From the human T2T-CHM13v2.0 reference genome, Homo sapiens, in the NCBI RefSeq assembly GCF_009914755.1, contig NC_060938.1: a stretch of DNA of 64,000 nucleotides. One strand, 5' to 3'. Of the stretch, positions 1-48,654 are shown piece by piece. The notes beneath the pieces are model-generated. The model was not told where the DNA came from and ran no database searches. It saw only the letters and a program-made list of their open reading frames with translations. Within the stretch, counting starts at the first letter, position 1; the number at the start of each line of letters is the position of its first letter. Both the position numbers and the translations under genes were made by a program.

Positions 1-523
1 CCTGGTCACTCTGGTGATAGCTTCTTTTGCTGTGCAGAAGCTCGTTAGTTTAGTTAGATCTCATTTGTCAATTTTAGCTTTTGTTGTGATTGCTTTTGGT
101 ATTTTATTCATGAAGTCTTTGCTCATGCCTATGTCCTGAATGGTATTGCCTAGGTTTTCTTCTAGGGTTTTTATGGTTTGGTGTTTTACATTTAAGACTT
201 TAATCCATCTTAAGATAATGTTTGCATAAGGTGTAAGGAAGGGGTACAATTTCTGTTTTCTGAATGTGGCTAGCCAGTTCTTTCAGCACCATTTGGTAAG
301 TAGGAAATCTTTCCCCATTGCTTGTTTTTGTCAGGTTTGTCGGAGATCAGATGGTTGTAGATGTGTGATGTTATTTCTGAGGCCTCTGTTCTGTTCCATT
401 TGTCTATATATCTGTTTTGGTATCAGTACTGTGCTGTTTTGGTTACTGTAGCCTTGTAGTATAGTTTGAAGTCGGGTAGCAGGATGCCTCAAGCTTTGTT
501 GTTTTTGCTTAGGATTGTTTTGG
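1..523 (-). mobile_element. L1 (L1PA-type) ORF2-region fragment
   Basis: Translation [34 protein letters not shown]...[11 protein letters not shown] is L1 ORF2p C-terminal sequence. Mirror of the L1 starting at 47592. Confidence 0.93.
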
Positions 524-1384
524 GTTGACAGGCAAACAGGCTCCTATATTTGGGGTCACGTGCCCAGAGTATCACAGCTAATTCAGACGTGAGCTGAGAC
601 TTGAAATGCACGTGCTCTTTCCCTTACCTGGGTCTGTTGTATAATGCATCTTAGCAGCTATGTAACAGTAGGAATTAGAATATTTAGACATCTTTTTAGC
701 AACTTTTTAACCTGCATTTTTGTAACGTGGTAAAGACCTTCATCCCATCCCTGAGCCCCTCTCTCACAACACTGCACCCCACTGCTGACCACACTGTTGT
801 GTGACCATTAGGAATCAGGGGGGCAGCGGGGGCTGGAAATAAATAAGAAAGGATTATGTTTCCCAAATTTGCTCACCTTAGAAAGTCTCCTCAACCATTC
901 TGTGTGAGGTGATTTTTCCAAGGTAATTGTGCCCTGACTGCGCTGGATGTCAGTGTGTCTTGTCTTTTTGAAAATCACTGGATTACTCTCATGAACGGAG
1001 TATTTCTCTTTCTATTTGAAAATGGTCAACTGTCCTCTGCAGGTGTCCTGACTTGCTAGTTTAGACCCTGAAGGTAGCGGTGAGAAAATATTTGGGCCAC
1101 ATCAGAATACCTATTCTCAGCTGGAGGATATATAGAAATTTCTTAATAATATCTAACCATTTTCTCAATAACCATTATATTTAACATTGATAGCTTGGAA
1201 GGCAGGGAAGGACACAGATGGCACAATCTTCAAAGTTTAATTTAGTTATCAGGTTTTTTTTTTGTTCTTGCTTAGTTTTGCTTAGTTTTTGGATACAAGG
1301 TCTTGCTCTGGTGCCCAGGCTGGAGGGCAGTGGCATAATGATAACTCATAATTTGGTTGTAACGGTTCTTTAAAATATATTTTT

Positions 1385-1650
1385 GCCGAGAGTGCTAGCT
1401 CATACCTGTAATCTAAACACTTTGGGTGGCCAAGGTGGGATGATCGCTTGATCCCAGGAGTTCAAGACGAGTCTGAGCAACATAAGTAGACTCAGTCTCT
1501 AGAAAAATATTTAAAAATTGTCTGGGTGTAGCTTTGCATGCCTGTAGTCCCAGCTACTTGAGAGGCTGATTTGAAAGCATCACTGGAGCCTAAGAATTTG
1601 AAGATGCAGTGACCCATGATTCAGCCACTGCATTGACAGAGTGAGATATG
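1385..1650 (+). mobile_element. Old Alu (AluJ-like)
   Basis: Diverged dimeric Alu. A short antisense Alu fragment lies just upstream at ~1285-1350. Mirror at 46470..46732. Confidence 0.85.
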
Positions 1651-3909
1651 TGTGTGTCTCTGTGTGTGTGTATAAAGAATTTGTATGTGAAAAAAATTCA
1701 AGCACAGGAGAAAAGTGAAAGCCCATGGTGGGGGATGTGGAGAAAGGTCAGTGTGGCTCCAGCACCTCAGTGCGACTTGGTTTTCCATCTTGAAGAATTG
1801 CCCATCCACACTGAAACCATAGCCTAACATATGCCATTTCTCACACTACACCTGCTGGGATACAAGTATGTAGCCTTTTGAAAAAAATAAAATCTTTCAC
1901 CTAAGAGAAGGACAAGAGAAAATGAGGGTTTCACATCTAAAGCCTTCATTTTCTTTATGAATCAACAGCCACTTGTCATTTGAATTGTCCAGAGGCGACT
2001 GACAGCACTAATACACTTAATGAATCAACCAGGAAAAATGGGCCTCTCAGGTGAGGAGGAGGCACAATGGTCACAAAACCCAATCCGTTCTCAGCTTTGC
2101 ATGGTGCTCGCATCTCAAGAAGTGGTGTTAGCCATGTGAACCGTGTTCACTGGACAAGGCCAGAGGAAAGAATATTTAGTACAACACAACTATGGGGCTG
2201 CAAATCAAACTGGTAGTGAGAGCATGCATGAGGCTTCAGTGGCCGAGACACTGGTGGCTACCCTTCGGTGTCACTTAAACCTTTGAGGTGAAGGACATCT
2301 TTTTTCCCAACTGGCTCAGAGAAACCAATCAACATTAAAATTGAGATTTGTTTTTCTTTTCAAAATTTCTAAGACATAGAGGAGTCTCTAACACTCCAAA
2401 AGAGATTCAGCTATACATGCAGCTGAGGACCTGCCTGCTCTGTAGAGGGATGGCAGAGCAGCAGCCACCAGCTTTAGTAGCTTTAAGCTCCTCCTCTCAT
2501 AGGGACAGGCCACCCCCACACAACCCCCCTAACTTCATAGGCTCTAGCTGTCAGGTGCACCTGGGGGACTGTCTTCCTCCCATCTCATTAGCTCTCGAAG
2601 ACAGTCCAGCTCAATCTAAAACCTACCTTAGGATGGCGAGATGTAGGCTCTCCTCCATTCTCCCAGTGTAGTGTGACTTCTAGAGAGTGCTTCTCCATCC
2701 TCTTACCTCAGATGATGTGAAAAGAGCCGTTTCCCGGGCAGTTAGATGTTCAGTGACATAACAGGCCCAGCATGCGCAGGGCCTGGCCCCACAGCCTGGC
2801 ACCTCTCCCCTACCTGGCCTTCACGCTGGACTTTTCTCTTCTGCCACAAATATCAGGTGATGATCACCTCTGCCACACTCTCATGAGCTTGGTAAGTAGC
2901 AGGGGTGTAAACCTCAACAGATTTCCTGTGACTCTACCCTCTTACCTCCCACTCAAGTGACATTATAAGCATAATTTTATATTTGATCTAATTTATGCAT
3001 AACCTTTTTATAACATTTCTGACAACAGCCCTCACAACCACATGAGTCTGGGTTACAGAACACACGGGCGAGGCTCGGGTAGCAGGTTTCACTTACTTTA
3101 TTCCAATGTGAAATGAAGATTGATGATTTAAAAACAAGACAAAGTTGTTTATCAGCTGTGGGGTGGCTACACTTGCTAGCTCATGCTCACTTCCTTTGAA
3201 ACAAGGTATCTGGACAGACCATATTCATAAGTAGGTCTTCGCAAAACCCCAGACAGAAGTTCCAGTCAGACACAGCTCCCTCAGGCTCACAGGGTGGCAA
3301 CCGCCTCCATGTTAGGCTCTGACAGCAGGCAAGGAAAGGAGCACAGGCAGCAGGGGACAGGGAGGGTCCGGGACTGTAGGGATCCCCAAATGCCCCAGAG
3401 CTATTCTCTGTAGAAGGGCACACGCAGGTCTCACTGTGTCAGTGCAGTGGCTGAATCATGGGTCACTGCAGCCTCAATCTCTTAGGCTCCAGTGATGCTT
3501 TCACCTCAGCCTCTCAAGTAGCTGTATGGCAAAAAGCCTCCTACTTTTTACTTAAAACCTGGACTTTAAGCCAGGTTGGGCCTGGGAATAGTGGCAGCAA
3601 AAGCAGCAGCCAAATGTATACACTCCAGATGTCTACACTCATGGGCACAGGCATATTCCACACTTGCTGGAGCACGAGAGGCCTGAGAGGCACCTGTTTC
3701 CCAGCTACTAACTGATGTCCACACACCCCATTCACGTGTCTTCATTTAGGTCTCTGCATCGTATATTTGCTCAGCCAGTGCAAACACATCTTCTGGGGGG
3801 CAACATTAATTGCAGCACCTGCCCCACTTGTTCTGGGAGGGAGTCAAGAGGAATCTGGTCAGCTCCTAATCCCCCAGGACAAAGGTGATGCCCTCTTTTC
3901 AGGACTTAC

Positions 3910-6900
3910 ATCCAGCAGCGTCATCTCGGGATGGGTTTTTCAAACACAAGCAGCATGAGGTAGCAAGCATGGTGTGACAGGCTCAGGGCCATGGGCAGCC
4001 GGTTGCTGGAGAAGCAGCACAGGGCAGGCACATCTGTGGGTGGCACCATGACAAGCCAAGACAGCCACAGCCCCTAATCCCAACAGCTCCAGCCCAGATG
4101 GCATTCAAATCTTCCCGGATAGTATTGGGGTGCCCGATGCCCATCACTCGCCCTCTAATTAGCACGGCCTTGTTGGTTACTCAGGGACTAAGGAGAGGGG
4201 GTGGGGGATGTAGATCCAGGGTGGGCACTGCCTCACAGCCAGAGTCCACCTGACTGCAGGCCAGCAAGCAAGCCCAAGAAGCTCAGCTCTAGTCACATCT
4301 GGCTGTACTTTATGTGTATACATTACACAAAGGTAGCAAACAGAGGTCAACAATAGCTGTTGTGACATGAAAGTCTATGCCCCATTAAGACCTTAAAATG
4401 CTATTGTCTTAAGCTATCTTTATTCTAATAAAATTTATACAAATAAACACATACAAGCTGAACTACTATAAAGGAAATATTAGGATTTTTTAAACCCATA
4501 AACAGACATGAAAACAGTCACTGTTTGATTGCAGAGAAAGTGAGCTTCTAAAGCAGCTGACCACAAAACAGCCTCACCAAACCCCAGGCAGGCCAGGCAG
4601 TCTGAACACTACAAGGCCACGTGATGGTCACAGAGGATGACAGCTCCTGTGAGTATTGCAAGGCACTGTGTTAGCTTCTCACTCACAGTCTCAGAATACC
4701 CTGTGAGGGGAGGCCCCATCTCACTAGAGCACAGGAGATTCCTGAGCTCTTCCCAAAAAATGGTCATCAAACGATGGAGCAGAGGGAAGCCCAGACAGAA
4801 CAAGTGAGTCCCTAGGGTCTCCTTAACCTCCCTCAGCTCCTCCACATGGGTCCCTGAGGGAAAGTGAGCAGCCTCCTAACCCCCTTGATAGGGTTCCAGT
4901 CCTGCAGGTCGGACTCTCTCATTTTATGCTACCATAGGGTGTGACAATGCAACCCCAGGCCCCTTATTTGCCATCCCTCAATGCCAGGCCAGACCCAGAG
5001 TCCTTTGCTAACACAGCCCAGGGGATGCTCAAGGCCCACCTCGGCACAGTCACCTGTAGTGTACTGAGATGAGCAAGGAGGTGCAAGTAGACACAAATCC
5101 CCATGGGCTTGGCCTCAGGCATGTTCCACAGGCTCAGGGCCTCCCTGATGAGCTCACAGCCCTCCTTCAGGAATCCTGCAGATCACACCCTCAGGGAGCA
5201 GTGCTCAGATGAGCAGGCAGGCTCCACATCCCCCACCCCATGACGCTCTGTTCCACTTTGCAGGCTTCTGCATTGGCCAGTCCCCACTGCTTTCTGGTGA
5301 GATGTCTGAGTTGAAGTGAATGTTGAAGGCCACAGAGCTGATGGAGCTCACTGCCTTGCACATGTTGTAAATCACCTCCTGGCTTCAAGGGTCAGCTGTG
5401 GACACACAGCTTGATGGGAGTAGGCCCACTCCACCATCAGTAGTGCTGGGTTGCCCTGATCTGCACCTTCCAGGTCCTTTCTGAGATGTCTGCATGCTTC
5501 TCTAAGGGACTGGGTCACGAGACACCCCTGGCAAGAGTCAGCTGGCAGAACAGGCTGGACACTCTCCCTCAGCCTCCCCAGCAGCCCCGCCTGTGCTGTC
5601 ATCTGTGCTGATGATCTCCGTGGTAAGATTATGGGAAATTTTTTAAAGCATCTTTTCCCCGTTCATTTCCCTATCTTAATAACAGCACTGATAACTTTTA
5701 AGCCCTAGCAAGCTGAAACTGCAAGACACATGATCTTCTGCCTTAGAAGGGCCATGTTTGGGCAGTGTGTGCCCAGGTGAGAGCCCCATGGTTGTTAGTG
5801 GAAGCGGGGAGCTGGATGGGCCCGGCCCCATAGCCTAGTGAAAAGTGGGACCCTCTCCTTCCAGAGCATGGAAGTCTCAGAGGCTGGAAAAAGGTGCCTG
5901 AGTGGCCTGCCAAGAAGCAGAAGGCTAGAAGGCCTGGAAAGAACCCCAACAGCCTTCAAGCTGCCTGAGAGGGCTGGGCTCATTCCAGCTTTCTTTGCTT
6001 TCATCCTGTTAGCAAGAAAACCTGCTCACAGATGGCAGGCGGGCCTGAGGCTGCCATTCCCTCATCAGGGGCTATAGGCACCTTTAATGTGGCTCTTTCT
6101 TGAAGCAGCTGCTCAGGCCGGTTCTCGAAGAGCAGTTCCCTTATTATCCACAGGTCCTTGTTCCAGCCCCGTGTCTGCAGAGGGACTAGGGAGGGAGACA
6201 AGGGCTCAGCCTGTGCCCCACAACCTGCTTTGAGACATCTCTTTTGTTACTTCCTCACAGACAGCCTGAAACTTCCAAATGAACAGACCAGAATGGAGCC
6301 TCCAGGAAAGTGTACAGAATTCTGTCTAGTACCCAGAAGGAAGGGGGTTCCCAGTGAAGGCAGGGCCAGGCTGCATGCACCTCTTCAAAAATATTCTCCT
6401 CATAGTCCACCCTCAAGGTGTACATCCTCTGTGTGCTTGCAGTCCATGGCAGCCTCTGCCTTGGGAACCATCCAGCTGCACACCTGCAATATGGTGGTGA
6501 CCCTCTTGAATGGATGGTTCTGGGCCCCATTGCAGGCAGCAGATAGGGAGATGCTCAGCCCATCAAGCCCAGAGCCCTGCCACAGGCTTCTGTGAGGCCT
6601 CCACCTGCTCTGGGTTCTTGCCCTGAGAGGCTGCCCTGAAGTCAAACACAAGCAGGTGGGACTCTCTTCCACAGCTGCTCTCTCTCCCACTGACAGCTCC
6701 CTAGAGGGTAACTCAGACAGAGAAGATAGAATTCTCAGGCAGAAGGACAGGAGTTTCGGCTGCCGATTCATTCCATACCCCCACATGACATGACACAAGG
6801 CAGGGGCTGTGGGACAAAGGCATTGCCTTTCCTTCTGGCATGAGGAATGCCTTAGGAAGCAGGTCTGGTGGGGCTAGGGTTGAGCGATAGGCTTCAGGCC

Positions 6901-7693
6901 ACAAGGAGTGGACGGACACTGAGCAAGTATCCTGCTTATCTGTCCACAGATCCAGAACAAGTGGCATCCCAGGAGCCTGGGAGGGGCTGGCAGAGACTTA
7001 CTGTGTCCAGCAAAAGCCCCATGTGGATGCGGTAATGCTGCCTGCTGGTCCTTGGCTGTAATTACAAACAGGTACATGAGGTCCCCATGGATCTTGCAGC
7101 TCTCAGGGAGTGGGTTCCAGCTGCTCATGGTAGGCACTTTTAGTCACTGAACGTGCTTCAGGAATGGCCAAGCTTGATTAAGCCAGGCGTCTTGCTGTGA
7201 GACCCTCCACCCAACTGAGGACCCTCTTCCTTGTCCCCCCTGACAGTTTACCTTCCAGTTCTGGTTCTGGAGACACGATGGCCCTTCTTGGGCCCCTGGG
7301 AGAATGTGCTCAGATGACACACAGTCGACAGGGCCCATTTCCAAGCCATTCTTCCATTTCCCACTGTTTGAGGGGCTGAGGCCGGTGATCAGCACAGGGC
7401 CACCCAGGGCCAGCTGTCTGCACCTAAACGTCATGTTGGTCTGGATGTCTCAGAGCCAGAACTCTCCAGGTAAGATGGCCTGGTCCTCAGCACCTGGCCT
7501 CCATGCTCCTTTTTCCTCTGTTCAATCCTGGCCCCAATGCCTCCCGCAACTCTCAGGTCACCATTGGAGAAGATGCTCAGGAAGAACAAGGAGCTGCAGT
7601 CAACCCTGCTGAAGGTGGCATATGGGTCCAGGCTCTTGAGCTGGTCTTTGACATGGTACATGTGGATGCAGGCTTTGAGCAGTGTGAGTAGCT
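3910..7693 (-). pseudogene. CLUHP: Unprocessed (duplicated) CLUH pseudogene, left-arm copy
   Basis: Exon-sized blocks match CLUH as recalled. 7550-7693 HMYHVKDQLKSLDPYATFSRVDCSSLFFLSIFSNGDL (CLUH [37 protein letters not shown]); ~7252-7367 SGKWKNGLEMGPVDCVSSEHILPG; ~7002-7155 [30 protein letters not shown] ([30 protein letters not shown]); ~6381-6527 HPFKRVTTILQVCSWMVPKAEAAMDC; 6082-6174 TRGWNKDLWIIRELLFENRPEQLLQERATLK; 5294-5395; 5040-5175; ~4109-4187 RVMGIGHPNTIRE; 3910-4033. Blocks are separated by intron remnants and carry frameshifts and stops. Related 3' sequence may extend to ~3540. Confidence 0.93.
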
Positions 7694-7862
7694 CTTTCCG
7701 GAAGGAGGGGAAAACGGTGTTACCAGGGTCCTACACCCTAGAACGACCCATCTAGCACAGAAAACAGTTTGCAACGTGCTATCATGTGTGATTTTAATTT
7801 TGGGCTTTAGGCTTTCATTTCCAAATTCCACAATAAACACATAAGGTGGGGTTCTGATTTCA

Positions 7863-7925
7863 ACACACACACACACACACACACACACAAGCACACACAC
7901 ACATTCTCTCTCTCTCCCTCTCTCT
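7863..7925. repeat. Compound (CA)n(CT)n microsatellite
   Basis: Directly visible. The CA tract is nearly absent at the mirror site ~40250-40283. Confidence 0.95.
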
Positions 7926-9690
7926 TAGAATCTTCCAGTGCATTCACACTGAAAGCCGAAGTCCTCCCAGAATCTTGTGAGAACCTAAATGATCTGAATA
8001 GTTTGTCATTGCTTTTGGGGATCTGGGAAAATCTCTGCACATTTCTGGAGACCGCTGTTATGCCATTTTTAATAAATCTGTTCTGCTTCAATTCAGAAGT
8101 GTGTGAGGGGAGTTGTGGAGGAATTGGCATTTGGGTTAGAAATTATAGGAACAACAGAGACAGATGACACCTGTTTTCTGCTTCATAATGTCAAGTTTTA
8201 TGAAAGCTAAAACCTAATTCTACAAAAAAATTAGACTGAAAAACTTTATAGGCAAAAATTATCTTATTAAATAGGAAAATCTAATTATTTTATTTTAAAA
8301 TTTTCTTTTCCTTAGTAGGACCTAATCATAGAAATTTAAACACTGTATGCCAACAGCCTCTACTGTAGGATGGTTTATTGTAAGTACTCATTTTACAGAT
8401 TTCTTACAAAAACTTTTTCCGTAAGGGAAATTAGAATATTGTTCAACATATATTGAATTCACAATTATTACCTTATTTCTCACTTATTATTTTATGATTC
8501 TGTTTTCTTTAATATGAAGATTACTATGACTGTGTTTTCACTTTCTGAATTATCATGTGTCACATTTTTCTGTAATTTCAGTTTGAGAAGTTGTAAAACA
8601 GCATGCCCAAATGTATATGTTATGTATCAATTATATAATTAATTATTAAAATATTTGGCTTGTATGTTTAATTGACTCTAGGCACAATGTTACTATTAAC
8701 ATTTTCTTCCAGTTTTCCCAACTTTTATTTGACTAATAGTACAATTTATTTCCAGTTTTTATTTTATCTGTCAATGTTTTATACTGTATTTACAATATTT
8801 ATATTGTCACCATATGTAAAAATGTAAGACCTTTCTATTAAAGGCTAGATTACAGCCTTACCCTTTTGTGTAAGGAAAGCAGCAATGCATCAGTAGCATA
8901 ATTTAAAACTTTCTCTAGTATTACTTAAATTTTTATTTCTTAAAACTTTCTCATCACATCTCTTTCTAATAATTATAATATGGTTTCTTTGAAATGTTGT
9001 TGCCCTAATTGTATCCAAATAATTCAAAATTTATACTTTTTACGGATTCAAAGGAAGAGTTGAAAATTGTAGTTACCTAGGATTCTTTTTCAGTTGGACA
9101 CTATGTTTATTCAGGATTTTATAGATCAAAGTTTCTCTTAATTATGTTTTAGAATTTATGTTTCTGTATTTTTTAGAGTAGGCTGTCTCACAGCAGTTAA
9201 TTGTGTTTTTACTTTCTACCTATTTATTATGATTTTGAATTACATTATTCAAGTAAGAATTCGGGGAAGGTTTCTTTTAAGTTTGTTTTGCAATTTTGCA
9301 TTTCTGTGTTTCATGTTTTAGGGTAGGGCACCTTACATCAGTTTATTGTTTTTAGTTTGAATTTATATAATATAATTTTCTATGACAATATTCAAATCTG
9401 TACACCTTAAGACAGTGTGAGGCAAAAAATATGAACCATCCCTATGGTCTTTTGTTAATATAATGATTTAATTGTTTGTTTGCTTGTATAAATATTGCCC
9501 CTATTTTGTTTATGACTTGTGCATTTTCTTCTTGTTTGATGGCCAATAATTGATTCTGTCTAAGTGAGTAATCATGGAAATTGTCTTAATTTCAACATCT
9601 ATTGTTTATATTATCCTAGTGTGAAAGAAAGACTTATGCGATTTGAAGATAATTTTTCAAAAACTTTGTAACTCTCTCTCTTCGGGTGTC

Positions 9691-9986
9691 TTTACTTATT
9701 TATTTATTTTTTGACAGACTCTCACCCTGTCGCCAAAGTGCAGTGGCACAATCTTGGCTCACTGCAACCTCCACCTCCCAGGTTAAAGCAATTCTCCAGC
9801 TGCTGCCTCTTGAGTAGCTGGCATTAAAAGTGTGCACCACCACGCCTGGTTAATTTTTGTGTTTTTCATAGAGCTGGGGTTTCACCATGTTGGCCAGGCT
9901 GGTCTTGAACTCATGGCCTCAAGTAATCTGCATGCCTCAGCCTCCCAGAGTGCTGAGATTACAGGCATGAGCCATCTCTCTTGGCC
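9691..9986 (-). mobile_element. Alu (AluS-like)
   Basis: Antisense Alu with T-rich head. Mirror at 38181..38475. Confidence 0.92.
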
Positions 9987-9999
9987 ATTGGGTGTCATT

Positions 10000-10915: not shown

Positions 10916-10919
10916 ACTG

Positions 10920-12560: not shown

Positions 12561-12633
12561 AATGGGATTAGGCTAGCATCAACTTCCAGAAAGAGTCATT
12601 GGCGATATATGAGATAGAATGAATCAAAATCAG

Positions 12634-12922
12634 TGGGATGTAGTTGCTCTTGCTTGTAATCTTAGCAGATTGGTAGACCAAGACGGGTGGAACACTTAAG
12701 GCCAGGGGTTTGAAACCAGCCATGGCCAGCATGGCAAAAACCCTTCTCCACTGAAAATGCAAAAATTAGCCAGATGTGTTGATGCTTGCCTGTAATCCCA
12801 GCCACTCAGGAGGCTGAGGTGTAAGAATCACCTGAGCCAAGGAAGCAGAGATTACATTGAGCCTTGATCATGTCTCTGCACTCCAGCCTGGGTGACAGAG
12901 CGAGACTGTGTCTCAAAAAAAA
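12634..12922 (+). mobile_element. Old Alu followed by (TA)n-rich tract to ~13055
   Basis: Diverged Alu dimer ending gagactgtgtctcaaaaaaaa. Mirror at 35270..35555. Confidence 0.88.
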
Positions 12923-21069: not shown

Positions 21070-26975
<5,906 letters not shown>

Positions 26976-38170: not shown

Positions 38171-38180
38171 GACACCCAAG

Positions 38181-38475
38181 GGCCAAGAGTGATCACTCAT
38201 GCCTGTAATCCCAGCACTCTGGGAGGCTGAGGCATGCAGGTTACTTGAGGCCATAAGTTCAAGACCAGCCTGGCCAACATGGTGAAACCCCAGCTTCATG
38301 AAAAATACAAAAATTAGCCAGGCGCGGTGGTGCACAACTTTAATGCCAGCTACTCAAGAGGCAGCAGCTGGAGAATTGCTTTAACCTGGGAGGTGGAGGT
38401 TGCAGTGATCCAAGATTGTGCCACTGCACTTTGGCAACAGGGTGAGAGTTTGTCAAAAAAAAAAAAAAAAAAAAA
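38181..38475 (+). mobile_element. Alu (AluS-like), mirror copy
   Basis: ggccaagagtg...gcctgtaatcccagcac...poly(A). Confidence 0.92.
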
Positions 38476-40452
38476 GACACCCGAAGAGACAGAGTTACAA
38501 AGTTTCTGAAAAATTATCTTCAAATCGCATAAATCTTTCTTTCACACTAAGATAATATAAACAATAGATGTTGAAATTAAGACAATTTCCGTTATTACTC
38601 ACTTAGACAGAATAAATTATTGGCCATCACATAAGAAGAAAATATACAAGTCATAAACAAAATAGGGGCAATATTTATACAGGCAAACAAACAGTTAAAT
38701 CATTATATTAACAAAAGACATAGGGATGGTTCATATTTGACTTCTGCCCCACACTGTCTTAATGCATACAGAGTTGAATATTGTTATACAATATTATATT
38801 GTACAAATTAAAACTTAAAACAATAAACTAATATAAGGTGCCCTACCCTAAAACATGAAACACAGAAATGTAAAATTGCAAAACAAAGTTAAAATAAACA
38901 TTAACCCCCAAATTCTTATTTGAATAATGAAAATCAAAATCATAATAAATAGGTAGAAAGTAAAAACACAATTAACTGATGTGAGACAGCCTACTCTAAA
39001 AAATACAGAAACATAAAATTATAAAACATAATTAAGAGAAACTTTAATCCATAAAATCCTGAATAAACATAGTGTCCAAATGAAAAAGAATCCTAGGTAA
39101 CTACAATTTTTAACTCTTCCTGAGAATCTATGAAAATTATGAATTTTGAATTATTTGGATACAGTTAGGGCAACAACATTTCAGAGAAAACACATTATAA
39201 TTATTACAAAGAGCTGTGATGAGAAAGTTTTAAGGAATAAGCATTTAAGTAATACTAGAGAAAGTTTTAAATTATGCTACTGATGCATTGCTGCTTTTCT
39301 TACACAAAACGGTAAGGCTGTAATCTAGCTTTTAATTGAAAAGTCTTACATTTCTAAATATGGTAACAATATAAATATTGTAAATACAGTATAAAACATT
39401 GACAGATAAAATAAAAATTGGAAATAAATTGTACTATTAGTGAAATAAAAGTTGGGAAAACTGGAAGAAGATGCTAATAGTAACATTGTGCCTAGAGACA
39501 ATTAAACATACAAGCCAAATATTTTAATAAATTATAAATTATATAATTTATACATAATATATACATTTGAGCATGCTATTTTACAACTTCTGAAAGGAAA
39601 TTACAGACAAATGTGACACATGATAATTCAGAAAGTGAAAACACAGTCATAGTAATCTTCATATTAAAGAAGACAGAATCATAAAATACTAAGTGAGAAA
39701 TAAAGTAATAATTGTGAATTCAATATATGTTGAACAATATTCTAATTTCCCTTACGGAAAAAGTTTTTGTAAGAAATCAGTAAAATGAGTACATACAATA
39801 AACCATCCTACAGTAGAGGCTGTTGGCATATAGAGTTTACATTTCTATGATTAGGTCCTACTAAGAAAAAGGAAATTTTAAAATAAAATACTTAGACTTT
39901 CCTATTTAATAAGATAATTTTTGCCTATAAAGTTTTTCAGTCTAATTTTCTTGTAGAATTAGGTTTTAACCGTCGTAAAACTTGACATTATGAAGCAGAA
40001 AACAGGTGTCATCTGTCTCTGGTGTTCCTGGAATTTCTAACCCAAATGCCAATTCCTCCACAACTCCCCTCACACACTTCTGAATTGAAGCAGAACAGAT
40101 TTATTAAAAATGGCATAACAGCGGTCTCCAGAAATGTGCAGAGATTTTCCCAGATCCCCAAAAGCAATGACAAACTATTCAGATCATTTAGGTTCTCACA
40201 AGATACTGGGAGGACTTTGGCTTTCAGTGTGAATTCACTGGAAGATTCTAAGAGAGAGGGAGAGAGAGAGAATGTATGTGTGTTGAAATAAGAACCCCAC
40301 CTTATGTGTTTATTGTGGAAATTGAAAATGAAAGCCTAAAGTTGAAAATTAAAATCACAGATGATAGCACATTGCAAACTCTTTTCTGTGCTAGATGGGT
40401 CGTTCTAGGGTGTAGGACCCTGGAAACACCGTTTTCCCCTCCTTCCGGAAAG

Positions 40453-43400
40453 AGCTACTCACACTGCTCAAAGCCTGCATCCACATGTACCATGTCAAAG
40501 ACCAGCTCAAGAGCCTGGACCCATATGCCACCTTCAGCAGGGTTGACTGCAGCTGCTTGTTCTTCCTGAGCATCTTCTCCAATGGTGACCTGAGAGTTGC
40601 GGGAGGCATTGGGGCCAGGATTGAACAGAGGAAAAAGGAGCATGGAGGCCAGGTGCTGAGGACCAGGCCATCTTACCTGGAGAGTTCTGGCCCTGAGACA
40701 TCCAGACCAACATGACGTTTAGGTGCAGACAGCTGGCCCTGGGTGGCCCTGTGCTGATCACCGGCCTCGGCCCCTCAAAAAGTGGGAAATGGAAGAATGG
40801 CTTGGAAATGGGCCCTGTCGACAGTGTGTCACCTGAGCACATTCTCCCAGGGGCCCAAGAGGGCCATTGTGTCTCTAGAACCAGAACTGGAAGGTGAAAC
40901 TGCCAGGGGGAACAAGGAAGAGGGTCCTCAGTTGGGTGGAGGGTCTCACAGCAAGACGCCTGGCTTAATCAAGCTTGGCCATTCCTGAAGCATGTTCAGT
41001 GACTAAAAGTGCCTAACATGAGCAGCTGGAACAGACTCTCTGAGAGCTGCAAGATGCATGGGGACCTCAAGTACCTGTTTGTAATTACAGCCAAGGACCA
41101 GCAGGCAGCATTACTGCATCCACATGGGCTTTTGCTGGAACCAGTAAGTCTCTGCCAGCCCCTCCCAGGTTCCTGGGATGCCACTTGTTCTGGGTCTGTG
41201 GACAGATAACCAGGACACTTACTCAGTGAAGCCCATCGCTCAACCCCAGCCCCACCATACCCTGTTTCCTAAGCCATTCTTCATCCCAGAAGGAAAGGCA
41301 ATGCCTTTGTCACACAGCCCCTGCCTTGTGTCATGTCATATGGGGGTATGGAATGAACCCGTCAGCTTAAACTCCAGTCCTTCTGCCTGAGGAATCTGTC
41401 CCCGCTGTCTGAGTCGCCCTCTAGGGAGCTGTCAGTGGGAGAGAGAGCAGCTGTGGAAGAGAGTCCCACCTGCTTCTGTTTGACTTCAGGACAGCCTTTC
41501 AGGGCAAGAACCCAGAGCAGATGGAGGCCTCAAAGAAGCCTGTGGCAGGGCTCTGGGCTTGGTGGGCTAAGCATCTCCCTCTCTGATGACTGCCATGGGG
41601 CCCACAACAACTCATTCAAGAGGGTCACCACCACATTGCAGGTGTGCAGCTGGACGGTTCCCCAGGCAGAGCCTGCCATGGACTGCATGCACACAGAGGA
41701 TGCACACCTTGAAGTTGGACAATGAGGAGAACATTCCTGAAGAGGTGCATGCAGCCTGGCCCTGCCCTCACTGGGAACCCCCTTCCATCTGGGTACTAGA
41801 CAGAATTCTGTGCACTTTTCTGGAGGCTCCATGCTGGTCTGTTCATTTGGAAGTTTGATGCTCTCCGTGAGGAAGTAACAAAAGAGATATCTCAGAGCGG
41901 GTTGTGGGTCACAGGCTGAGCGATTTTCTCCCTCCCTAGTCCCTCTGCAGACACGGGGCTGGAACAAGGACCTGTGGATAATGAGGGAACTTCTCTTCAA
42001 GAACCGGCCTGAGCAGCTGCTTCAAGAAAGAGCCACATTAAAGGTGCCTATAGCCCCTGATGAGGGAATGGCAGCCTCAGGCCCGCCTGCCATCTGTGAG
42101 CAGGTTTTCTTCCTAACAGGATGAAAGCAAAGAAAGCTGGAATGAGCCCAGCCCTCTCAGGCACCTTGAAGACTGTTGGGGTTCCTTCCAGCCCTTCTAG
42201 CCTTATGCTTTTTGGCAGGCCACTCAGGCACCTTTTTCCAGCCTCTGAGACTTCCATGCTCTGGAAGAAGAGGGTCCCACTTTTCACTAGGCTATGGGGC
42301 CAGGCCCATCCAGCTCCCGGCTGCCACTAACAACCATGGGGCTCTCACCTGGGCACACACTGCCCAAACATGGCCCTTCTAAGGCAGAAGATCATGTGTC
42401 TTGCAGTTCCAGCTTTCTAGGGCTTAAAAGTTATCAGTGCTGTTATTAAGATAGGGAAGTGAGAAAGGAAAACTTGCTGTAAAAGTTTCCCATAATCTTA
42501 CCACGGAGATCTTCAGCACAGATGACAGCACAGGCATGGCTGCTGGGGAGGCTGAAGGAGAGTGTCCAGCCTGTTCTGCCAGCTGGTCCTTGCCAGGGGT
42601 GTCTCGTGACCCAGTCCCTTAGAGAAGCATGCAGATATCTCAGCAAGTATCTGGAAGGTGCAGATCAGGGCAACCCAGCACTACTGATGGTGGAGTGGGC
42701 CTACCTCCCATCAAGCTGTGTCTCCGCAGCTGACCCTTGAAGCCAGGAGGTGATTTACAACATGGGCAAGGCAGTGAGCCCCATCAGCTGTGTGGCCTTC
42801 AACATTCACTTCAACTCGGACATCTCACCAGAAAGCAGTGGGGACTGGCCAATGCAGAAGCCTGCAAAGTGGAACAGAGCGTCATGGGGTGGGGGATGTG
42901 GGGCCTGCCTGCTCATCTGAGCACTGCTCCCTGAGGGTGTGATCTGCAGGCTTCCTGAAGGCGGGCTGTGAGCTCATCTCTGAGGCCCTGAGACTGTGGA
43001 ACATAGCTGAGGCCAAGCCCATGGGGATTTGTGTCTACTTGCACCTCCTTGCTCATCTCAGTACACTACAGGTGACTGTGCCGAGGTGGGCCTTGAGCAT
43101 CCCCTGGGCTGTGTCAGCAAACGGCTCTGGGCCTGGCCTGGCATTGAGGGATGGCAAAAAAGGAGCCTGGGGTTGCATTGTCACCCCCTATGGTAGCATA
43201 AAATGAGAGAGTCCAGACCTGCAGGACTGGAACCCTAACAAAGGGGTTAGGAGGCTGCTCACTTTCCCTCAGGGACCCATGTGGAGGAGCTGAGGGAGGT
43301 TAAGGAGACCCTAGGGACTCACTTGTTCTGTCTGGGCTTCCCTCTGCTCCATCGTTTGATGACCATTTTCTGGGAAGAGCTCAGGAACCTCCTGTGCTCT

Positions 43401-44216
43401 AGTGAGATGGGGCCTCCCCTCACAGGGTATTCTGAGACTGTGAGTGAGAAGCTAACACAGTGCCTTGCAATACTCACGGGAGCTGTCATCCTCTGTGACC
43501 ATCACGTGGCCTTGTAGTGTTCAGACTGCCTGGCCTGCCTGGGGTTTGGTGAGGCTGTTTTGTGGTCAGGTGCTTTAGAAGCTCACTTTCTCTGCAATCA
43601 AACAGTGACTGTTTTCATGTCTGTTTATGGGTTTAAAAAATCCTAATATTTCCTTTATAGTAGTTCACCTTGTATGTGTTTATTTGTATAAATTTTATTA
43701 GAGTAAAGAGAGCTTAAGACAATAGCATTTTAAGGTCTTAATGGGGCATAGACTTTCATGTCACAACAGCTAATGTTGACCTCCTTTTGCTGCCTTTGTG
43801 TAAATTACACATAAAAAGTGCAGCCAGAGGTGACTAGAGCTGAGCTGCTTGGGCTTGCTTGCTGGCCTGCAGTCAGGTGGACTCTGGCTGTGAGGCAGTG
43901 CCCACCCTGGATCTACATCCCCCACCCTCTCTCCTTAGTCCCTGAGTAACCAACAAGGCCGTGCTAATGAGAGGGCGAGTGATGGGCATCGGGCACCCCA
44001 ATACTATCCGGGAAGATTTAAATGCCATCTGGGCTGGAGCTGTTGGGATTAGGGGCTGTGGCTGTCTTGGCTTGTCATGGTGCCACCCACAGATGTGCCT
44101 GCCCTGTGCTGCTTCTCCAGCAGCCGGCTGCCCATGGCCCTGAGCCTGTCACACCATGCTTGCTACCTCATGCTGCTTGTGTTTGAAAAACCCATCCGGA
44201 GATGACGCTGCTGGAT
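40453..44216 (+). pseudogene. CLUHP: Unprocessed (duplicated) CLUH pseudogene, right-arm copy
   Basis: Exon remnants at ~40453-40596, ~40779-40893 (|gt), ~40990-41143 (|gtaagt), ~41597-41744, 41951-42043 (cag|...|gt), 42730-42831 EVIYNMGKAVSPISCVAFNIHFNSDISP (CLUH [29 protein letters not shown]), 42950-43085 GFLKAGCELISEAL (GFLKEGCELINEAL), 43939-44017 and 44093-44216 (|gtaagt). Multiple disruptions. Related 3' sequence may extend to ~44590. Confidence 0.93.
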
Positions 44217-46469
44217 GTAAGTCCTGAAAAGAGGGCATCACCTTTGTCCTGGGGGATTAGGAGCTGACCAGATTCCTCTTGACTCCCTCCCAGAACAAGT
44301 GGGGCAGGTGCTGCAATTAATGTTGCCCCCCAGAAGATGTGTTTGCACTGGCTGAGCAAATATACGATGCAGAGACCTAAATGAAGACACGTGAATGGGG
44401 TGTGTGGACATCAGTTAGTAGCTGGGAAACAGGTGCCTCTCAGGCCTCTCGTGCTCCAGCAAGTGTGGAATATGCCTGTGCCCATGAGTGTAGACATCTG
44501 GAGTGTATACATTTGGCTGCTGCTTTTGCTGCCACTATTCCCAGGCCCAACCTGGCTTAAAGTCCAGGTTTTAAGTAAAAAGTAGGAGGCTTTTTGCCAC
44601 ACAGCTACTTGAGAGGCTGAGGTGAAAGCATCACTGGAGCCTAAGAGATTGAGGCTGCAGTGACCCATGATTCAGCCACTGCACTGACACAGTGAGACCT
44701 GCGTGTGCCTTTCTACAGAGAATACCTCTGGGGCATTTGGGGATCCCTACAGTCCCGGACCCTCCCTGTCCCCTGCTGCCTGTGCTTCTTCCCTTGCCTG
44801 CTGTCAGAGCCTAACATGGAGGAGGAGGTTGCCGCCCTGTGAGCCTGAGGGAGCTGTGTCTGACTGGAACTTCTGTCTGGGGTTTTGCGAAGACCTACTT
44901 ATGAATATGGTCTGTCCAGATACCTTGTTTCAAAGGAAGTGAACATGAGCTAGCAAGTGTAGCCACCCCACAGCTGATAAACAACTTTGTCTTGTTTTTA
45001 AATCATCAATCTTCATTTCACATTGGAATAAAGTAAGTGAAACCTGCTACCCCAGCCTCTCCCGTGTGTTCTGTAGCCCAGACTCATGTGGTTGTGTGGG
45101 CTGTTGTCAGAAATGTTATTAAAAGGTTATGCATAAATTAGATCAAATATAAAATTATGCTTATAATGTCACTTGATTGGGAGGTAAGAGGGTAGAGTCA
45201 CAGGAAATCTGTTGGGGTTTACACCCCTGCTACTTATCAAGCTCATAAGAGTGTGACACTGGTGACCATCACCTGACATTGGTGACAGAAGAGAAAAGGC
45301 CGAAGTGAAGGCCAGGTAGGAGAGAGGTGCCACGCTGTGGGGCCAGGCCCTGCGCATGCTGGGCCTGTTAGGTCACTGAACATCTAACTACCCGGGAACC
45401 AGCTCTTTTCACATCATTTGAGGTAAGACGATGGGGGAGCACTCTCCAGAAGTCACACTGCGCTGGGAGAATGGAGGAGAGCCTACATCCCGCCATCTTA
45501 GGGTAGGTTTTAGATTGAGCTGGACTGTCTTGGAGAGCTAATGAGATGGGAGGAAGACAGTCCCCCAGGTGCACCTGACAGCCAGAGCCTATGAAGTTAG
45601 GGGGGTTGTGTGGGGGTGGCCTGTCCCTATAAGAGGAGGAGCTTAAAGCTCTTAAAGCTGGTGGCTGCTGCTCTGCCATCCCTCTACAGAGCAGGCAAGT
45701 CCTCAGCTGCACGAATATCTGAATGTCTTTTGGAGTGTTAGAGTCCTCTGTGTCTTAGAAATTTTGAAAAGAAAAACAAATCTCAATTTTAATGTTGATT
45801 AGTTTCTCTGAGCCAATTGGGAAAAAAAACGTCCTTCACCTCAAAGGTTTAAGTGACACCGAAGGGTAGCCACCAGTGTCTCGGCCACTGAAGCCTCATG
45901 CACGCTCTCACTACCAGTTTGATTTGCAGCCCCATAGTTGTGTTGTACTACATATTCTTTCCTCTGGCCTTGTCCAGTGAACACGGTTCACATGGCTAAC
46001 ACCACTTCTTGAGATGCGAGCACCATGCAAAGCTGAAAACGGATTGGGTTTTGTGACCATTGTGCCTCCTCCTTACCTGAGAGGCCCATTTTCCCTGGTT
46101 GATTCATTAAGTGTATTGGTGCTGTCAGTCACCTTTGGACAATTCCAATGACAAGTGGCTGTTGATTCATAAAGAAAATGAAGGCTTTAGATGTGACACC
46201 CTCATTTTCTCTTGTCCTTCTCTTAGGTGAAAGATTTTATTTTTTTCAAAAGGCTACATACTGGTATCCCAGCAGGTGGAATGTAAGAAGGGGCAATTGT
46301 TGGGCTATGGTATCAGTGTGGATGGGCAATTCTTCAAGATGGAAAACCAAGTCTCACTGAGTTGCTGGAGCCATAGTCACCTTTCTCCACATCCCCCACC
46401 ATGGGCTTTCACTTTTCTCCTGTGCTTGAATTTTTTTCACATACAAATTTTTATACACACACACACACG

Positions 46470-46732
46470 TCACACTCTGTCAGTGCATGGGCTGAATCTT
46501 GGTTCACTTCAGCCTCAAACTCTTAGGCTCCAGTGATGCTTTCACCTCAGCCTCTCAAGTAGCTGGGACTACAGGCATGCAAAGCTACGCCCAGACAATT
46601 TTTAAATATTTTTCTAGAGACTGAGCCTACTTATGTTGCCCAGACACGTCTTGAACTCCTGGGATCAAGCGATCATCCCACCTTGGCCACCCAAAGTGTT
46701 TAGATTACAGGTCTGAGCTACCACTCTCAGCA
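46470..46732 (-). mobile_element. Old Alu (AluJ-like), mirror copy
   Basis: Reverse complement of 1385..1650. Confidence 0.85.
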
Positions 46733-48272
46733 AAAATATATTTTAAAGAACAGTTACAACCAAATTATGAGTTATGATTATGCCACTGTCCTCCAGCCTG
46801 GGCACCAGAGCAAGACCTTGTATCCAAAAACTAAGCAAAACTAAACAAGAACAAAAAAAAAACCTTATAAACAAATTAAATTTTAAGATTATGTCATCTG
46901 TGTCCTTCCCTGCCCTCCAAGCTATCAATGTTAAATATAATGGTTATTGAGAAAATGGTTAGATATTATTAAGAAATTTCTATATATCTTCCAGCTGAGA
47001 ATAGGTATTCTGATGTGGCCCAAATATTTTCTCACCGCTACCTTCAGGGTCTCAACTAACAAATCAGGACACCTGCAGAGGACAGTTGGCCGTTTTCAAA
47101 TAGAAAGAGAAATACCCCCGTTCATGAGAGTAATCCAGTGATTTTCAAAAAGACAAGTCAGACTGACATGCAGCGCAGTCGGGCCACAATTACCCTGGAA
47201 TAATCACTTCATACAGAATGGTTGAGGAGACTTTCTAAGATGAGCAAATTTGGGCAGCATAATCCTTGCTTATTTATTCCCGGCCCCCGCTGCCCGCCTG
47301 ATTCCTAATGGCCACCCTACAATGTGGTCAGCAGTGGGATGTAGCGTGGTGAGAGAGGGGCTCAGGGATGGGATGAAGGTCTTTCCTGCATTATCAAAAT
47401 GCAGGTTAAAAAGTTGTTAAAAAGATGTCCAAATGTTCTAATTCCTACTGTTAAATAGCTGCTAAGACGCATTATACAACAGACCCAGGTAAGGGAAGGA
47501 GCATGTGCATTTCAAGTCTCAGCTCACGTCTTAATTAGCTGTGATACTCTGGGCATGTGACCCCTACTATACGAGCCTGTTTGCCTGTCAACCCAAAACA
47601 ATCCTAAGCAAAAACACCAAAGCTTGAGGCATCCTGCTACCCGACTTCAAACTATACTACAAGGCTGCAGTAACCAAAACAGCACAGTACTGATACCAAA
47701 ACAGATATATAGACGAATGGAACAGAACAGAGGCCTCAGTAATAACATCACACATCTACAACCATCTTATCTCTAACAAACCTGACAAAAACAAGCAATG
47801 GAGAAAGATTTACTACTTAACAAATGGTGCTTAAAGAACTGGCTAGTCACATTCAGAAAACAGAAACTGGACCCCTTCCTTACACCTTATACAAACATTA
47901 TCTCAAGATGGATTAAAGTCTTAAATATAAAACACCAAACCACAAAAACCCTAGAAGAAAACCTAGGCAATACCATTCAGGACATAGTCATGAGCAAAGA
48001 CTTCAGGAATAAAATACCAAAAGCAATCACAACAAAAGCTAAAATTGACAAATGAGATCTAATTAAACTAACGAGCTTCTGCACAGCAAAAGAATCTATC
48101 ATCAGAGTGACCAGGCAACCTACAGAATGACAGAAAATTTTTGCAATCTATCCATGTGTCAGAGGTCTAATATCCAGAATCTACAAGGAACTTAAATTCA
48201 CACACACACACACACAAAACATCAGAAAGTGAGTAAAGAATATGAACAGACTATTCTCAAAAGAAGACATTT

Positions 48273-48654
<382 letters not shown>

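What the first reader, a model, noticed from the sequence alone, without database searches (positions are those of the whole stretch)
1..48115. Giant inverted repeat (arms over 21 kb, 5.9 kb spacer), probably the core of the rDNA distal-junction palindrome
Seen: arms 1..21069 and 26976..48115 are reverse complements with the axis at ~24020. The CpG promoter at ~49.6 kb is ~25.5 kb from the axis, so if the arm continues a twin promoter lies ~1.5 kb before the window start, ~51 kb away and facing the opposite way. Recalled, not verified here: the human NOR distal junction on acrocentric short arms has a long diverged inverted repeat with lncRNA promoters named disnor187 and disnor238, which implies 51 kb spacing. 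Inference: this window is that palindrome's centre, a region linked to nucleolar anchoring. The structure is likely known but thinly annotated.
Basis: partly seen in the sequence, partly recalled or inferred. Interest (0 to 1): 0.8.

Follow-up and report, generated by a model that had tools for sequence, protein, structure and literature searches.

The report
Centre of the rDNA distal-junction palindrome
This window is the middle of the large, already published inverted repeat that sits next to the ribosomal RNA gene arrays on all five human acrocentric chromosomes, so the structure is real but not new.

Summary
Window 1-21069 and 26976-48115 form one gapped reverse-complement alignment at 93.3% identity, around a 5,906-nt spacer.

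- The promoter block at ~49.6 kb has ten full-length copies in the assembly: a + copy and a mirrored copy ~51 kb away on each of C13, C14, C15, C21 and C22.
- On C14 the arms are ~113 kb each, C14:1,767,954-1,999,203.
- ACRO138-type arrays lie mirrored ~78 kb from the axis, and the rDNA lies on the + side.

This is the distal-junction (DJ) palindrome of Floutsakou 2013, van Sluis 2019 and Yoo 2025, with disnor187 in the window and disnor238 just outside it. It is already known.

Details I did not find in print:
- The arms homogenise between chromosomes, not across the axis: 97.8-99.98% same side, 94.0-94.5% opposite.
- At least two ~0.7-0.8 kb tracts (3187-4002, 19020-19736) were copied across the axis on the chr14/15/22 lineage only.
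- Substitutions are unusually rich in transversions, ts/tv ~1.25.
- Each promoter lies in a ~10 kb duplicon shared with 4q35, 10q26 and 3p12.

The parts
1..21069 (.). Innermost 21 kb of the telomere-side arm of the DJ palindrome. The arm continues ~92 kb beyond the window start, to C14:1,767,954.
21070..26975 (.). Unique 5,906-nt spacer. It has exactly 5 full-length copies in the assembly, one per acrocentric, all in the same orientation. It has sharp inner boundaries, no internal symmetry, and an Alu at ~26566-26871.
26976..48115 (.). The part of the rDNA-side arm that pairs with window 1-21069.
48116..64000 (.). Continuation of the rDNA-side arm. It pairs with sequence left of the window (C14:~1,845,000-1,860,000) at ~90-91.5%.
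49500..50200 (+). GC-rich, intermediate-CpG promoter region of the rDNA-proximal lncRNA (LOC389831 = disnor187 by position). A CCAAT motif lies at 49578-49582 and the annotated start is at 49592.
   Evidence: hub annotation
49592..49810 (+). Exon 1 of LOC389831, followed by a GTGAGT donor at 49811-49816. Only 1 fixed left/right difference, but 31 of 219 columns vary among the ten arm copies.
   Evidence: hub annotation
62110..62168 (+). Exon 2 of LOC389831. Taken from the annotation only, not examined here.
   Evidence: Hub annotation
3187..4002 (.). Tract A. The left arm of chr14/15/22 carries right-arm states, pairing with ~44124-44942. It has 44 informative sites without a normal left/right difference, one exception at 3526, and a 401-nt perfect run at 3527-3927.
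19020..19736 (.). Tract B. Same pattern, pairing with ~28382-29097. It has 30 informative sites, one exception at 19205, and a 362-nt perfect run at 19348-19709.
1..7926 (.). Left-arm part of a ~10 kb duplicon shared with 4q35, 10q26, 3p12 and pericentromeric C22/C14 copies at 86-92%. It continues left of the window to the mirrored promoter.
40250..49784 (.). Right-arm copy of the same duplicon. It ends inside exon 1 of LOC389831.
6299..6389 (-). mir-1324 precursor-like hairpin (Rfam RF03247, 87.1 bits), left-arm copy.
41736..41826 (+). mir-1324 precursor-like hairpin (97.7 bits), mirrored right-arm copy.
54802..56123 (.). 1.3 kb interspersed repeat present only in the right arm, on all five chromosomes, so it inserted after the duplication. 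It contains a 41-nt tandem repeat at 55377-55514.

Best explanation

Origin (inferred): one ancient inverted duplication of ~113 kb around a non-duplicated 5.9 kb spacer. The two copies have since diverged by ~7%.

Content: each arm carries, ~25.5 kb from the axis, a GC-rich promoter that fires away from the axis. The promoter in the window (49592, + strand) drives disnor187 (LOC389831) toward the rDNA. Its twin, ~1.5 kb left of the window, drives disnor238 toward the telomere.

Shown here: the structure, its copy number, its position and the mirrored promoters. Sequence identity is kept up mainly by exchange between heterologous chromosomes. Copying across the axis is only sporadic and kilobase-sized.

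Taken from the literature, not tested here: the DJ sits in perinucleolar heterochromatin, and its spliced polyadenylated lncRNAs are needed for normal nucleolar function and rDNA transcription. They probably act in trans or redundantly, because deleting one DJ leaves that NOR active.

I hold the identification at ~0.97. I hold the functional mechanism (a lncRNA transcription unit that matters for nucleolar function, with the inverted layout itself incidental) at ~0.5.
For: Structure:
- One 21 kb alignment at 93.3%.
- Arms of 113.1 and 112.2 kb on C14; 104,228 ungapped aligned columns, 6.9% mismatch, K2P 0.072.

Locus:
- 10 of 10 full-length promoter copies lie on the five acrocentric contigs in mirrored pairs 51 kb apart.
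- The spacer has 5 of 5 full-length copies on the same contigs.
- 139-140-nt tandem arrays lie in opposite orientation at C14:1,804,484-1,807,177 and from 1,962,173, ~78-79 kb either side of the axis, as published for ACRO138.
- On C13 the first listed 5.8S gene is 203 kb to the + side of the right-arm promoter copy. That is ~192 kb to the DJ/rDNA junction after subtracting ~6.6 kb of pre-rRNA (recalled) and ~4 kb (van Sluis 2019), against the published 187 kb.

Promoter: CCAAT motif, annotated start and consensus splice donor.

Literature (passages only):
- Floutsakou 2013: arms ~109 kb, disnor187/238, perinucleolar location.
- van Sluis 2019: all acrocentrics and chimpanzee; antisense knock-down.
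- Ataei 2025: CRISPRi of the repeat arms lowers EU incorporation.
- Yoo 2025: 230 kb palindrome conserved in great apes.

Mode of homogenisation: same-side copies 97.8-99.98% identical, opposite arms 94.0-94.5%.
Against: Nothing argues against the identification. Against a strong cis function:
- Giemza 2026 (passages) deleted the NOR-distal region, including most of the DJ, on one chr15. [quoted passage not shown]
- Exon 1 is highly variable among the ten copies, 31 of 219 columns.
- The region evolves fast: chr14 and chr21 left arms differ by 2.3% within one genome.
Both sequence points speak against tight constraint. My position estimate relative to the rDNA was measured on C13, not C14; one search scored only 40 candidates and all were on C13. 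The disnor names are assigned by position and spacing, not by aligning the published cDNAs.
Confidence: 0.9

Rival explanations
1. The palindromic layout is itself functional. The two arms fold back on each other, or otherwise form a symmetric chromatin domain, that positions the twin promoters and anchors the NOR at the nucleolar periphery.
For: The palindrome is retained on all five human acrocentrics and in all great apes. Ataei 2025 reports enriched contacts at the centre of the inverted repeat in naive hESCs. The spacer is nearly identical on all chromosomes; bit-score deficits correspond to roughly 2 to 20 differences in 5.9 kb (my conversion from bits).
Against: Siamang carries only half of the palindrome per haplotype (Yoo 2025). 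One NOR stays active without its DJ. With 7% divergence and a 5.9 kb spacer, DNA-level hairpin or cruciform formation is very unlikely (general knowledge of inverted-repeat stability, recalled). The spacer has no symmetry or recognisable element.
Confidence: 0.2
2. The palindrome is a neutral passenger. It is an old inverted segmental duplication that persists because it is linked to the rDNA and is swept along by exchange between acrocentrics. Its transcripts have no specific role.
For: Fast and unconstrained-looking evolution: 6.9% arm divergence, 2.3% between chr14 and chr21 left arms, exon 1 variable at 31 of 219 columns. The promoter sits in a duplicon that exists at many other loci. The single-DJ deletion is tolerated.
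Against: Antisense depletion of the transcripts and CRISPRi of the arms both impair nucleolar function. Transcription is conserved in chimpanzee. Fixed left/right differences nearly vanish across promoter, exon 1 and intron start: 5 in ~620 columns against 5-6.6% in the flanks.
Confidence: 0.25
3. The two high-identity patches reflect purifying selection on conserved elements rather than copying across the axis.
For: Both patches are strong outliers in the chr14 arm comparison: 11 and 12 differences per kb against a mean of 53.6.
Against: In the same patches the chr13 and chr21 left arms differ from the right arms by 41-61 (patch A) and 18-35 (patch B) mismatches per kb, which is ordinary divergence. 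At 14 of 26 discriminating sites in patch A, the state shared by all right arms and the chr14/15/22 left arms is derived relative to four outgroup paralogues. All arms are equally distant from the outgroups.
Confidence: 0.05
4. The inverted repeat is an assembly artefact.
For: None found.
Against: The same structure occurs on five contigs, with arm-specific and chromosome-specific variants. It was found independently in BAC contigs and in captured long reads from single-chromosome hybrids.
Confidence: 0.01

Closest known systems
Human rDNA distal-junction (DJ) inverted repeat / palindrome (Floutsakou 2013; van Sluis 2019; Yoo 2025)
   Same: It is this object. The five chromosomes, arm length (~109 kb published, ~113 kb here), mirrored ACRO138 blocks, twin lncRNA promoters 51 kb apart and position ~190 kb from the rDNA all match.
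   Different: Nothing structural. The published figure of ~80% average arm identity includes indels. Here the substitution divergence is 6.9% overall and 5.1% in the inner 21 kb.
Y-chromosome ampliconic palindromes P1-P8 and X-chromosome palindromes (recalled)
   Same: Large inverted repeats with a unique spacer. Copying between the arms occurs.
   Different: Y palindrome arms are kept >99.9% identical by frequent arm-to-arm conversion (recalled). The DJ arms are only ~93% identical, and conversion across the axis is rare and kilobase-sized: two clear tracts in 21 kb. Homogenisation runs between chromosomes instead.
4q35/10q26/3p12 FRG2-region duplicon
   Same: About 10 kb including disnor exon 1, its promoter, the upstream L1 3' end and a mir-1324-like hairpin is colinear with these loci at 86-92%.
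   Different: FRG2 coding sequence (PF15315) lies ~26 kb from those copies, and none of that search's 32 matches lies in the window or the DJ. The paralogy ends inside exon 1 at window 49784. Those loci are not palindromic and not next to rDNA.

Membership tests
rDNA distal-junction palindrome | Present once on each of chromosomes 13, 14, 15, 21 and 22 and essentially confined to them | tested here: met
   10 of 10 full-length promoter-block hits lie on C13/14/15/21/22; 5 of 5 full-length spacer hits lie on the same contigs; patch B has only 10 hits genome-wide, all on these contigs.
rDNA distal-junction palindrome | Two inverted arms of about 100-110 kb | tested here: met
   left arm C14:1,767,954-1,881,069, right arm 1,886,976-1,999,203. 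105,407 of 113,116 left-arm bases fall in aligned blocks.
rDNA distal-junction palindrome | Lies distal to (upstream of) the rDNA array, with the promoters ~187 and ~238 kb from it | tested here: met
   on C13: first listed 5.8S at 5,780,910 (+). This puts the right-arm promoter copy ~192 kb and the left-arm copy ~244 kb from the inferred junction. Not measured on C14 itself; inferred there by synteny.
rDNA distal-junction palindrome | Mirrored blocks of the 138-nt ACRO138 tandem repeat within the arms | tested here: met
   arrays of period 139-140 in opposite orientation ~78-79 kb either side of the axis. Identity to the published ACRO138 consensus was not checked.
rDNA distal-junction palindrome | Mirrored spliced lncRNA genes (disnor187/238) with starts 51 kb apart | tested here: met
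   Hub annotation gives starts at 49592 (+) and -1541 (-), 51,133 nt apart. The mirrored promoter sequence is confirmed at 95%. cDNAs AK026938/BX647690 were not aligned.
rDNA distal-junction palindrome | Perinucleolar localisation and a requirement of the transcripts for nucleolar function | not testable with these tools
   Literature only.
Conversion-homogenised palindromes (Y-chromosome type) | Arms kept near-identical by frequent arm-to-arm gene conversion | tested here: not met
   Arms differ by 6.9%. Same-side copies on other chromosomes are closer than the opposite arm on the same chromosome. Only two clear tracts of ~0.7-0.8 kb were found in 21 kb.
CpG-island promoter | GC >= 0.55 and CpG o/e >= 0.65 over >= 200 nt | tested here: not met
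   no window passes; 49501-50100 has GC 0.61-0.68 but o/e 0.42-0.62.

The most novel reading that the evidence does not exclude
The DJ palindrome is not evolutionarily inert between its arms. Kilobase-sized tracts have been copied across the axis on particular haplotype lineages: tracts at 3187-4002 and 19020-19736 on the chr14/15/22 left arm, a reciprocal-looking tract on chr15's right arm, and possible tracts on chr21. These tracts then spread to some but not all acrocentrics. Substitutions in the whole region carry an extreme form of the transversion-rich, CpG-transition-poor spectrum reported for segmental duplications (ts/tv ~1.25 against 1.78 for duplications and 2.06 for unique DNA in Vollger 2023). 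Together these would mark the NOR flank as a site of frequent double-strand-break repair. They would also give sequence markers for tracing exchange between acrocentric chromosomes. I found neither point in print in the searches or the passages. Supplements of the ape and T2T papers were not read and may cover it.
Probability: 0.4. Interest if true: 0.35.

Novelty: already known. Interest (0 to 1): 0.15.

Why it matters
The DJ is the only non-rDNA sequence shared in sequence and position by all human nucleolar organisers. Its palindrome encodes the lncRNAs implicated in nucleolar function, so placing this window in it correctly is useful. It adds nothing new to the field. The side results would matter modestly if they hold in more genomes. 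They would show how a 230 kb palindrome survives without arm homogenisation. They would point to break-repair-driven mutagenesis beside the rDNA. They would also link the disnor promoter to the duplicon family at the FSHD-region subtelomeres.

Tried and rejected
- Spacer as a transposon insertion: rejected. Only an Alu at its right edge and a ~1.4 kb old repeat (69% to C9) are repetitive; the rest is unique to the five acrocentrics.
- Residual symmetry inside the spacer, or a shared repeat at the two inner junctions: none. The best self-inverted hits are 63 nt or shorter at E >= 0.005, and homology ends at the same base on both arms.
- Coding potential: 31 stop-to-stop ORFs of >=110 aa gave one near-cut-off RVT_1 fragment (58922-59311, 28.6 bits against a cut-off of 29.6) and one weak UPF0228 match below its cut-off. 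Nothing turned up in the arms' unique parts.
- FRG2 gene inside the DJ: none of the 32 PF15315 matches lies in the window or the DJ.
- Strict CpG island at the promoter: not met.
- chr13/21 left arms overwritten from a 4q35-type paralogue: rejected. All arms are 13.6-15.6% from the four close outgroups, and the outgroup supports the right-arm state at 10 of 26 sites.
- Misalignment as the cause of the low ts/tv: rejected. Isolated mismatches give 1.23.
- Known RNA families: only the two mir-1324 hits.
- Earlier notes of this scan were not open.
- A full ten-arm comparison of the inner 10 kb was not possible. The ten-arm data therefore cover only the 4.4 kb promoter block and the two 1 kb patches, and the 21 kb scan uses chr14 left, chr14 right and chr21 left only.
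Full report
**Observation.** A self-comparison of the window on the opposite strand gives a single gapped alignment of 1-21069 with 48115-26976. It has 21,281-21,283 columns, 93.34% identity, 1,060-1,063 mismatches and 353-357 gap columns in 81-83 openings. The ungapped repeat finder saw the same pairing in 33 pieces. The spacer is 21070-26975 (5,906 nt) and the axis is at ~24,022. The left arm ends at base 1 only because the window does.

**Full extent.** I fetched 100 kb on each side from the same contig and compared the pieces, kept as separate records, with the window. The pairing continues to C14:1,767,954 on the left and 1,999,203 on the right. The arms are therefore 113.1 and 112.2 kb.
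- 29 chained blocks cover 105,407 of the 113,116 left-arm bases and give 104,228 ungapped aligned columns.
- Mismatch is 6.9%, K2P 0.072, and non-CpG mismatch 6.1%.
- Divergence is uneven. It is ~5% in the inner 21 kb and in a block 87-95 kb from the axis, 6-8.5% through most of the arm, and up to 10-12% in several blocks 77-112 kb out.
- Window 48116-64000 is still right arm. It pairs with sequence left of the window, apart from a 1.3 kb repeat at ~54802-56123 that only the right arm has.

**Locus.** The window is G000:C14:1,860,001-1,924,000.
- The promoter block (48900-50300) has ten full-length matches: + copies on C14 (self), C13 (100%), C15 (98%), C22 and C21 (97%), and mirrored copies at 95% about 51 kb upstream on each of the same five contigs.
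- The C14 mirror copy is at 1,857,766-1,859,163, i.e. window -2234..-837. That agrees with the hub's minus-strand lncRNA ending at -1541.
- The spacer has exactly five full-length copies, one per acrocentric, all in the same orientation and almost identical.
- Tandem arrays of period 139-140 lie in opposite orientation ~78-79 kb either side of the axis, as published for ACRO138.
- On C13, where the DJ has the same orientation, 5.8S genes start at 5,780,910 on the + strand with 46,970-nt spacing. That places the junction ~192 kb from the right-arm promoter copy and ~244 kb from the left-arm copy. One search scored only 40 candidates, all on C13, so the C14 distance is inferred by synteny.

**What is published.** I read passages, not whole texts.
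[quoted passage not shown] Promoters at 187 and 238 kb give the spliced, polyadenylated disnor187 and disnor238. ACRO138 blocks lie in a mirrored arrangement.
- van Sluis 2019 (PMC6942050): the repeat is on all acrocentrics and in chimpanzee. Indel patterns show crossovers between heterologous chromosomes within the DJ. Antisense depletion of the transcripts reduced cell numbers about twofold; this is later summarised as nucleolar stress or defects.
- Yoo 2025 (PMC12058530): a 230 kb palindrome conserved in all great apes; siamang has one half per haplotype.
- A 2026 preprint (10.64898/2025.12.22.696095) uses 'DJ palindrome' as a standard term.
- Ataei 2025 (PMC11795452): a DJ L1PA2 at ~350 kb contacts the disnor sites, and CRISPRi of the arms lowers EU incorporation.
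- Giemza 2026 (PMC13726607): deleting the NOR-distal region, including most of the DJ, on one chr15 leaves that rDNA array active and causes only a marginal loss of nucleolar association.

By position, the promoter in the window is the rDNA-proximal one (disnor187). Both promoters fire away from the axis.

**Anatomy of the window.**
- The inner boundaries are sharp. Homology ends at the same base on both arms, and the spacer has no internal symmetry and no repeat shared by the two junctions. Apart from an Alu at ~26566-26871 and an old repeat, the spacer is unique.
- The arms have CpG o/e below 0.4 throughout.
- The promoter region 49500-50200 has GC 0.61-0.68 and CpG o/e 0.42-0.67. It fails a strict island test.
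- A CCAAT motif lies at 49578-49582 just before the annotated start (49592). Exon 1 ends at a GTGAGT donor. An L1 3' end finishes at ~49470.
- ORFs of >=110 aa gave no meaningful Pfam match.
- Rfam finds mirrored mir-1324-like hairpins at 6299-6389 (-) and 41736-41826 (+).

**How identity is maintained.** In a ten-arm alignment of the 4.4 kb promoter block, same-side copies on different chromosomes are 97.8-99.98% identical, while opposite arms are 94.0-94.5% identical. There are 144 fixed left/right differences, 112 sites polymorphic only on the right, 89 only on the left, and 15 on both. Haplotype groups differ between the sides: right {14,13}, {22,21}, {15}; left {14,15,22}, {13}, {21}. That fits the exchange between heterologous chromosomes within the DJ reported by van Sluis 2019.

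**Copying across the axis.** In the chr14 arm alignment there are 1,140 difference events, 53.6 per kb. Two 1 kb patches have only 11 and 12 events (Poisson ~2e-12 and 8e-12). They contain perfect runs of 401 and 362 nt, whereas the longest run in 2,000 uniform simulations was 277.
- Genome search showed that in both patches chr14's left arm is identical to the left arms of chr15 and chr22 and 98-99% identical to all five right arms. It is only 95-98% identical to the left arms of chr13 and chr21.
- With all ten copies fetched, chr14-left differs from the right arms by 10-13 (patch A) and 9-11 (patch B) mismatches. It differs from chr13-left by 40 and 19, and from chr21-left by 48 and 34.
- For patch A, four paralogues at ~90-92% served as outgroup. 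There are 26 sites where chr14/15/22-left and all right arms share one state and chr13/21-left share another. The outgroup majority has the chr13/21 state at 14, the other state at 10, and neither at 2.
- So at 14 sites a derived state is shared across the axis by one left-arm lineage only. That requires transfer, not lineage-specific mutation.
- All arms are equally distant from the outgroups, so chr13/21 were not overwritten from outside.
- chr15's right arm shares derived states, including a 3-nt deletion, with the chr14/15/22 left arms over positions 87-427 of the patch. This is a second event.
- No right arm is identical to the converted left arm, so this is not a mis-assembly of reads.
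- A 21 kb three-way scan (chr14-left, chr14-right, chr21-left) gives 839 normal left/right sites, 255 where chr14-left sides with the right arm, and 202 where chr21-left does. Runs free of normal sites delimit tract A at 3187-4002 (44 sites, one exception) and tract B at 19020-19736 (30 sites, one exception). Weaker runs at 12440-12875 and 5174-5403 may be tracts on the chr21 lineage, or clusters of mutation on the chr14 lineage.
- Patch B has no outgroup, so its direction is unpolarised.
- I found no description of such tracts in the searches or the passages. Supplements were not read.

**Mutation spectrum.** Ts/tv is 1.24 over the full arms. In the inner 21 kb it is 1.25 (591/472), and 1.23 for isolated mismatches (271/221). 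It is 1.26 for polarised between-chromosome differences in the promoter block (108/86). It is 1.26 (269/214) for chr14-left against chr21-left, and 1.28 when polarised (n = 457; C>T 146, T>C 111, C>A 73, C>G 49, T>G 40, T>A 38). Non-acrocentric paralogues of the same sequence give 49/23 (4q35 against 3p12), 49/22 (10q26 against 3p12) and 108/60 (4q35 against C12); these counts are small and share branches. Vollger 2023 (PMC10172114, passages) reports Ti/Tv of 1.78 in segmental duplications and 2.06 in unique DNA, with more C>G and C>A and fewer CpG transitions, and did not cover acrocentric DNA. The DJ shows the same direction of skew, more strongly. This is suggestive and needs proper matched controls.

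**Age (inference).** The arm K2P of 0.072 is ~1.8 times the published human-chimpanzee DJ divergence of ~4%. This places the duplication well before the human-chimpanzee split. It is compatible with origin on the great-ape stem, as the siamang half-palindrome suggests. Conversion makes this a lower bound.

**Duplicon link.** About 10 kb is colinear at 86-92% with C4:193,420,044-193,430,149, C10:134,602,661-134,612,628, C3:75,683,060-75,692,445 and copies on C22 and C14. This segment runs from inside exon 1, through the promoter and the L1 end, to ~8 kb toward the axis. Copies at 79-85% lie on C12, C7 and C19, and as an inverted pair on C24. FRG2 coding sequence lies ~26 kb from the 4q35, 10q26 and 3p12 copies, and none of that search's matches is in the DJ. 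In those paralogues the CCAAT motif is kept and exon 1 carries a 5-nt deletion.

**Verdict.** The structure is already known and well studied, so interest is low. The arm-to-arm tracts, the transversion-rich spectrum and the deep divergence between chr14 and chr21 left arms (475 of 20,813 sites, 2.3%) are modest additions worth checking in more genomes.

Noticed in passing
window 3187-4002 and 19020-19736 (partners ~44124-44942 and ~28382-29097): Kilobase tracts where the chr14/15/22 left arm carries right-arm states while the chr13 and chr21 left arms keep ordinary ~4-5% divergence. Outgroup polarisation for the first tract shows derived states shared across the axis at 14 of 26 sites.
   Followed up: yes
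whole palindrome (C14:1,767,954-1,999,203); window 1-48115: The transition/transversion ratio is ~1.25 in every comparison (arm against arm, chromosome against chromosome, isolated mismatches). Non-acrocentric paralogues of the same sequence give ~1.8-2.2, and published values are 1.78 for duplications and 2.06 for unique DNA.
   Followed up: partly
window 1-21069 against L052-L054 (C21:2,865,951-2,887,050): Left arms of chr14 and chr21 in the same genome differ at 475 of 20,813 sites (2.3%) in a mosaic pattern: 0-4 differences per 500 nt in 6251-7750 and 0-3 in 17501-18250, and 13-30 in many others. The published DJ average between chromosomes is ~99%.
   Followed up: partly
window ~1-7926 and ~40250-49784: A ~10 kb duplicon containing disnor exon 1 and its promoter is shared at 86-92% with 4q35, 10q26 and 3p12 (each ~26 kb from an FRG2 gene) and with pericentromeric C22/C14 copies. 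More distant copies include an inverted pair on C24.
   Followed up: partly
window 6299-6389 (-) and 41736-41826 (+): Mirrored matches to the Rfam mir-1324 precursor family (87.1 and 97.7 bits, gathering score 70), lying inside the shared duplicon ~7.8 kb upstream of each promoter.
   Followed up: no
window ~54802-56123: A 1.3 kb GC-rich interspersed repeat with a 41-nt internal tandem repeat. It is present in the right arm on all five chromosomes and absent from the left arm, so it inserted after the duplication. From memory it looks like an LTR12/HERV9-type solo LTR; this was not checked against a repeat library.
   Followed up: partly
window 49470-50110: Promoter, exon 1 and intron start have only 5 fixed left/right differences in ~620 columns (flanks 5-6.6%). 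Yet exon 1 varies at 31 of 219 columns among the ten copies, and several alleles are shared between left and right arms.
   Followed up: partly
window 12440-12875 and 5174-5403: Runs of sites where chr21's left arm agrees with the right arm against chr14's left arm. These may be further conversion tracts on the chr21 lineage, or clusters of mutation on the chr14 lineage.
   Followed up: no
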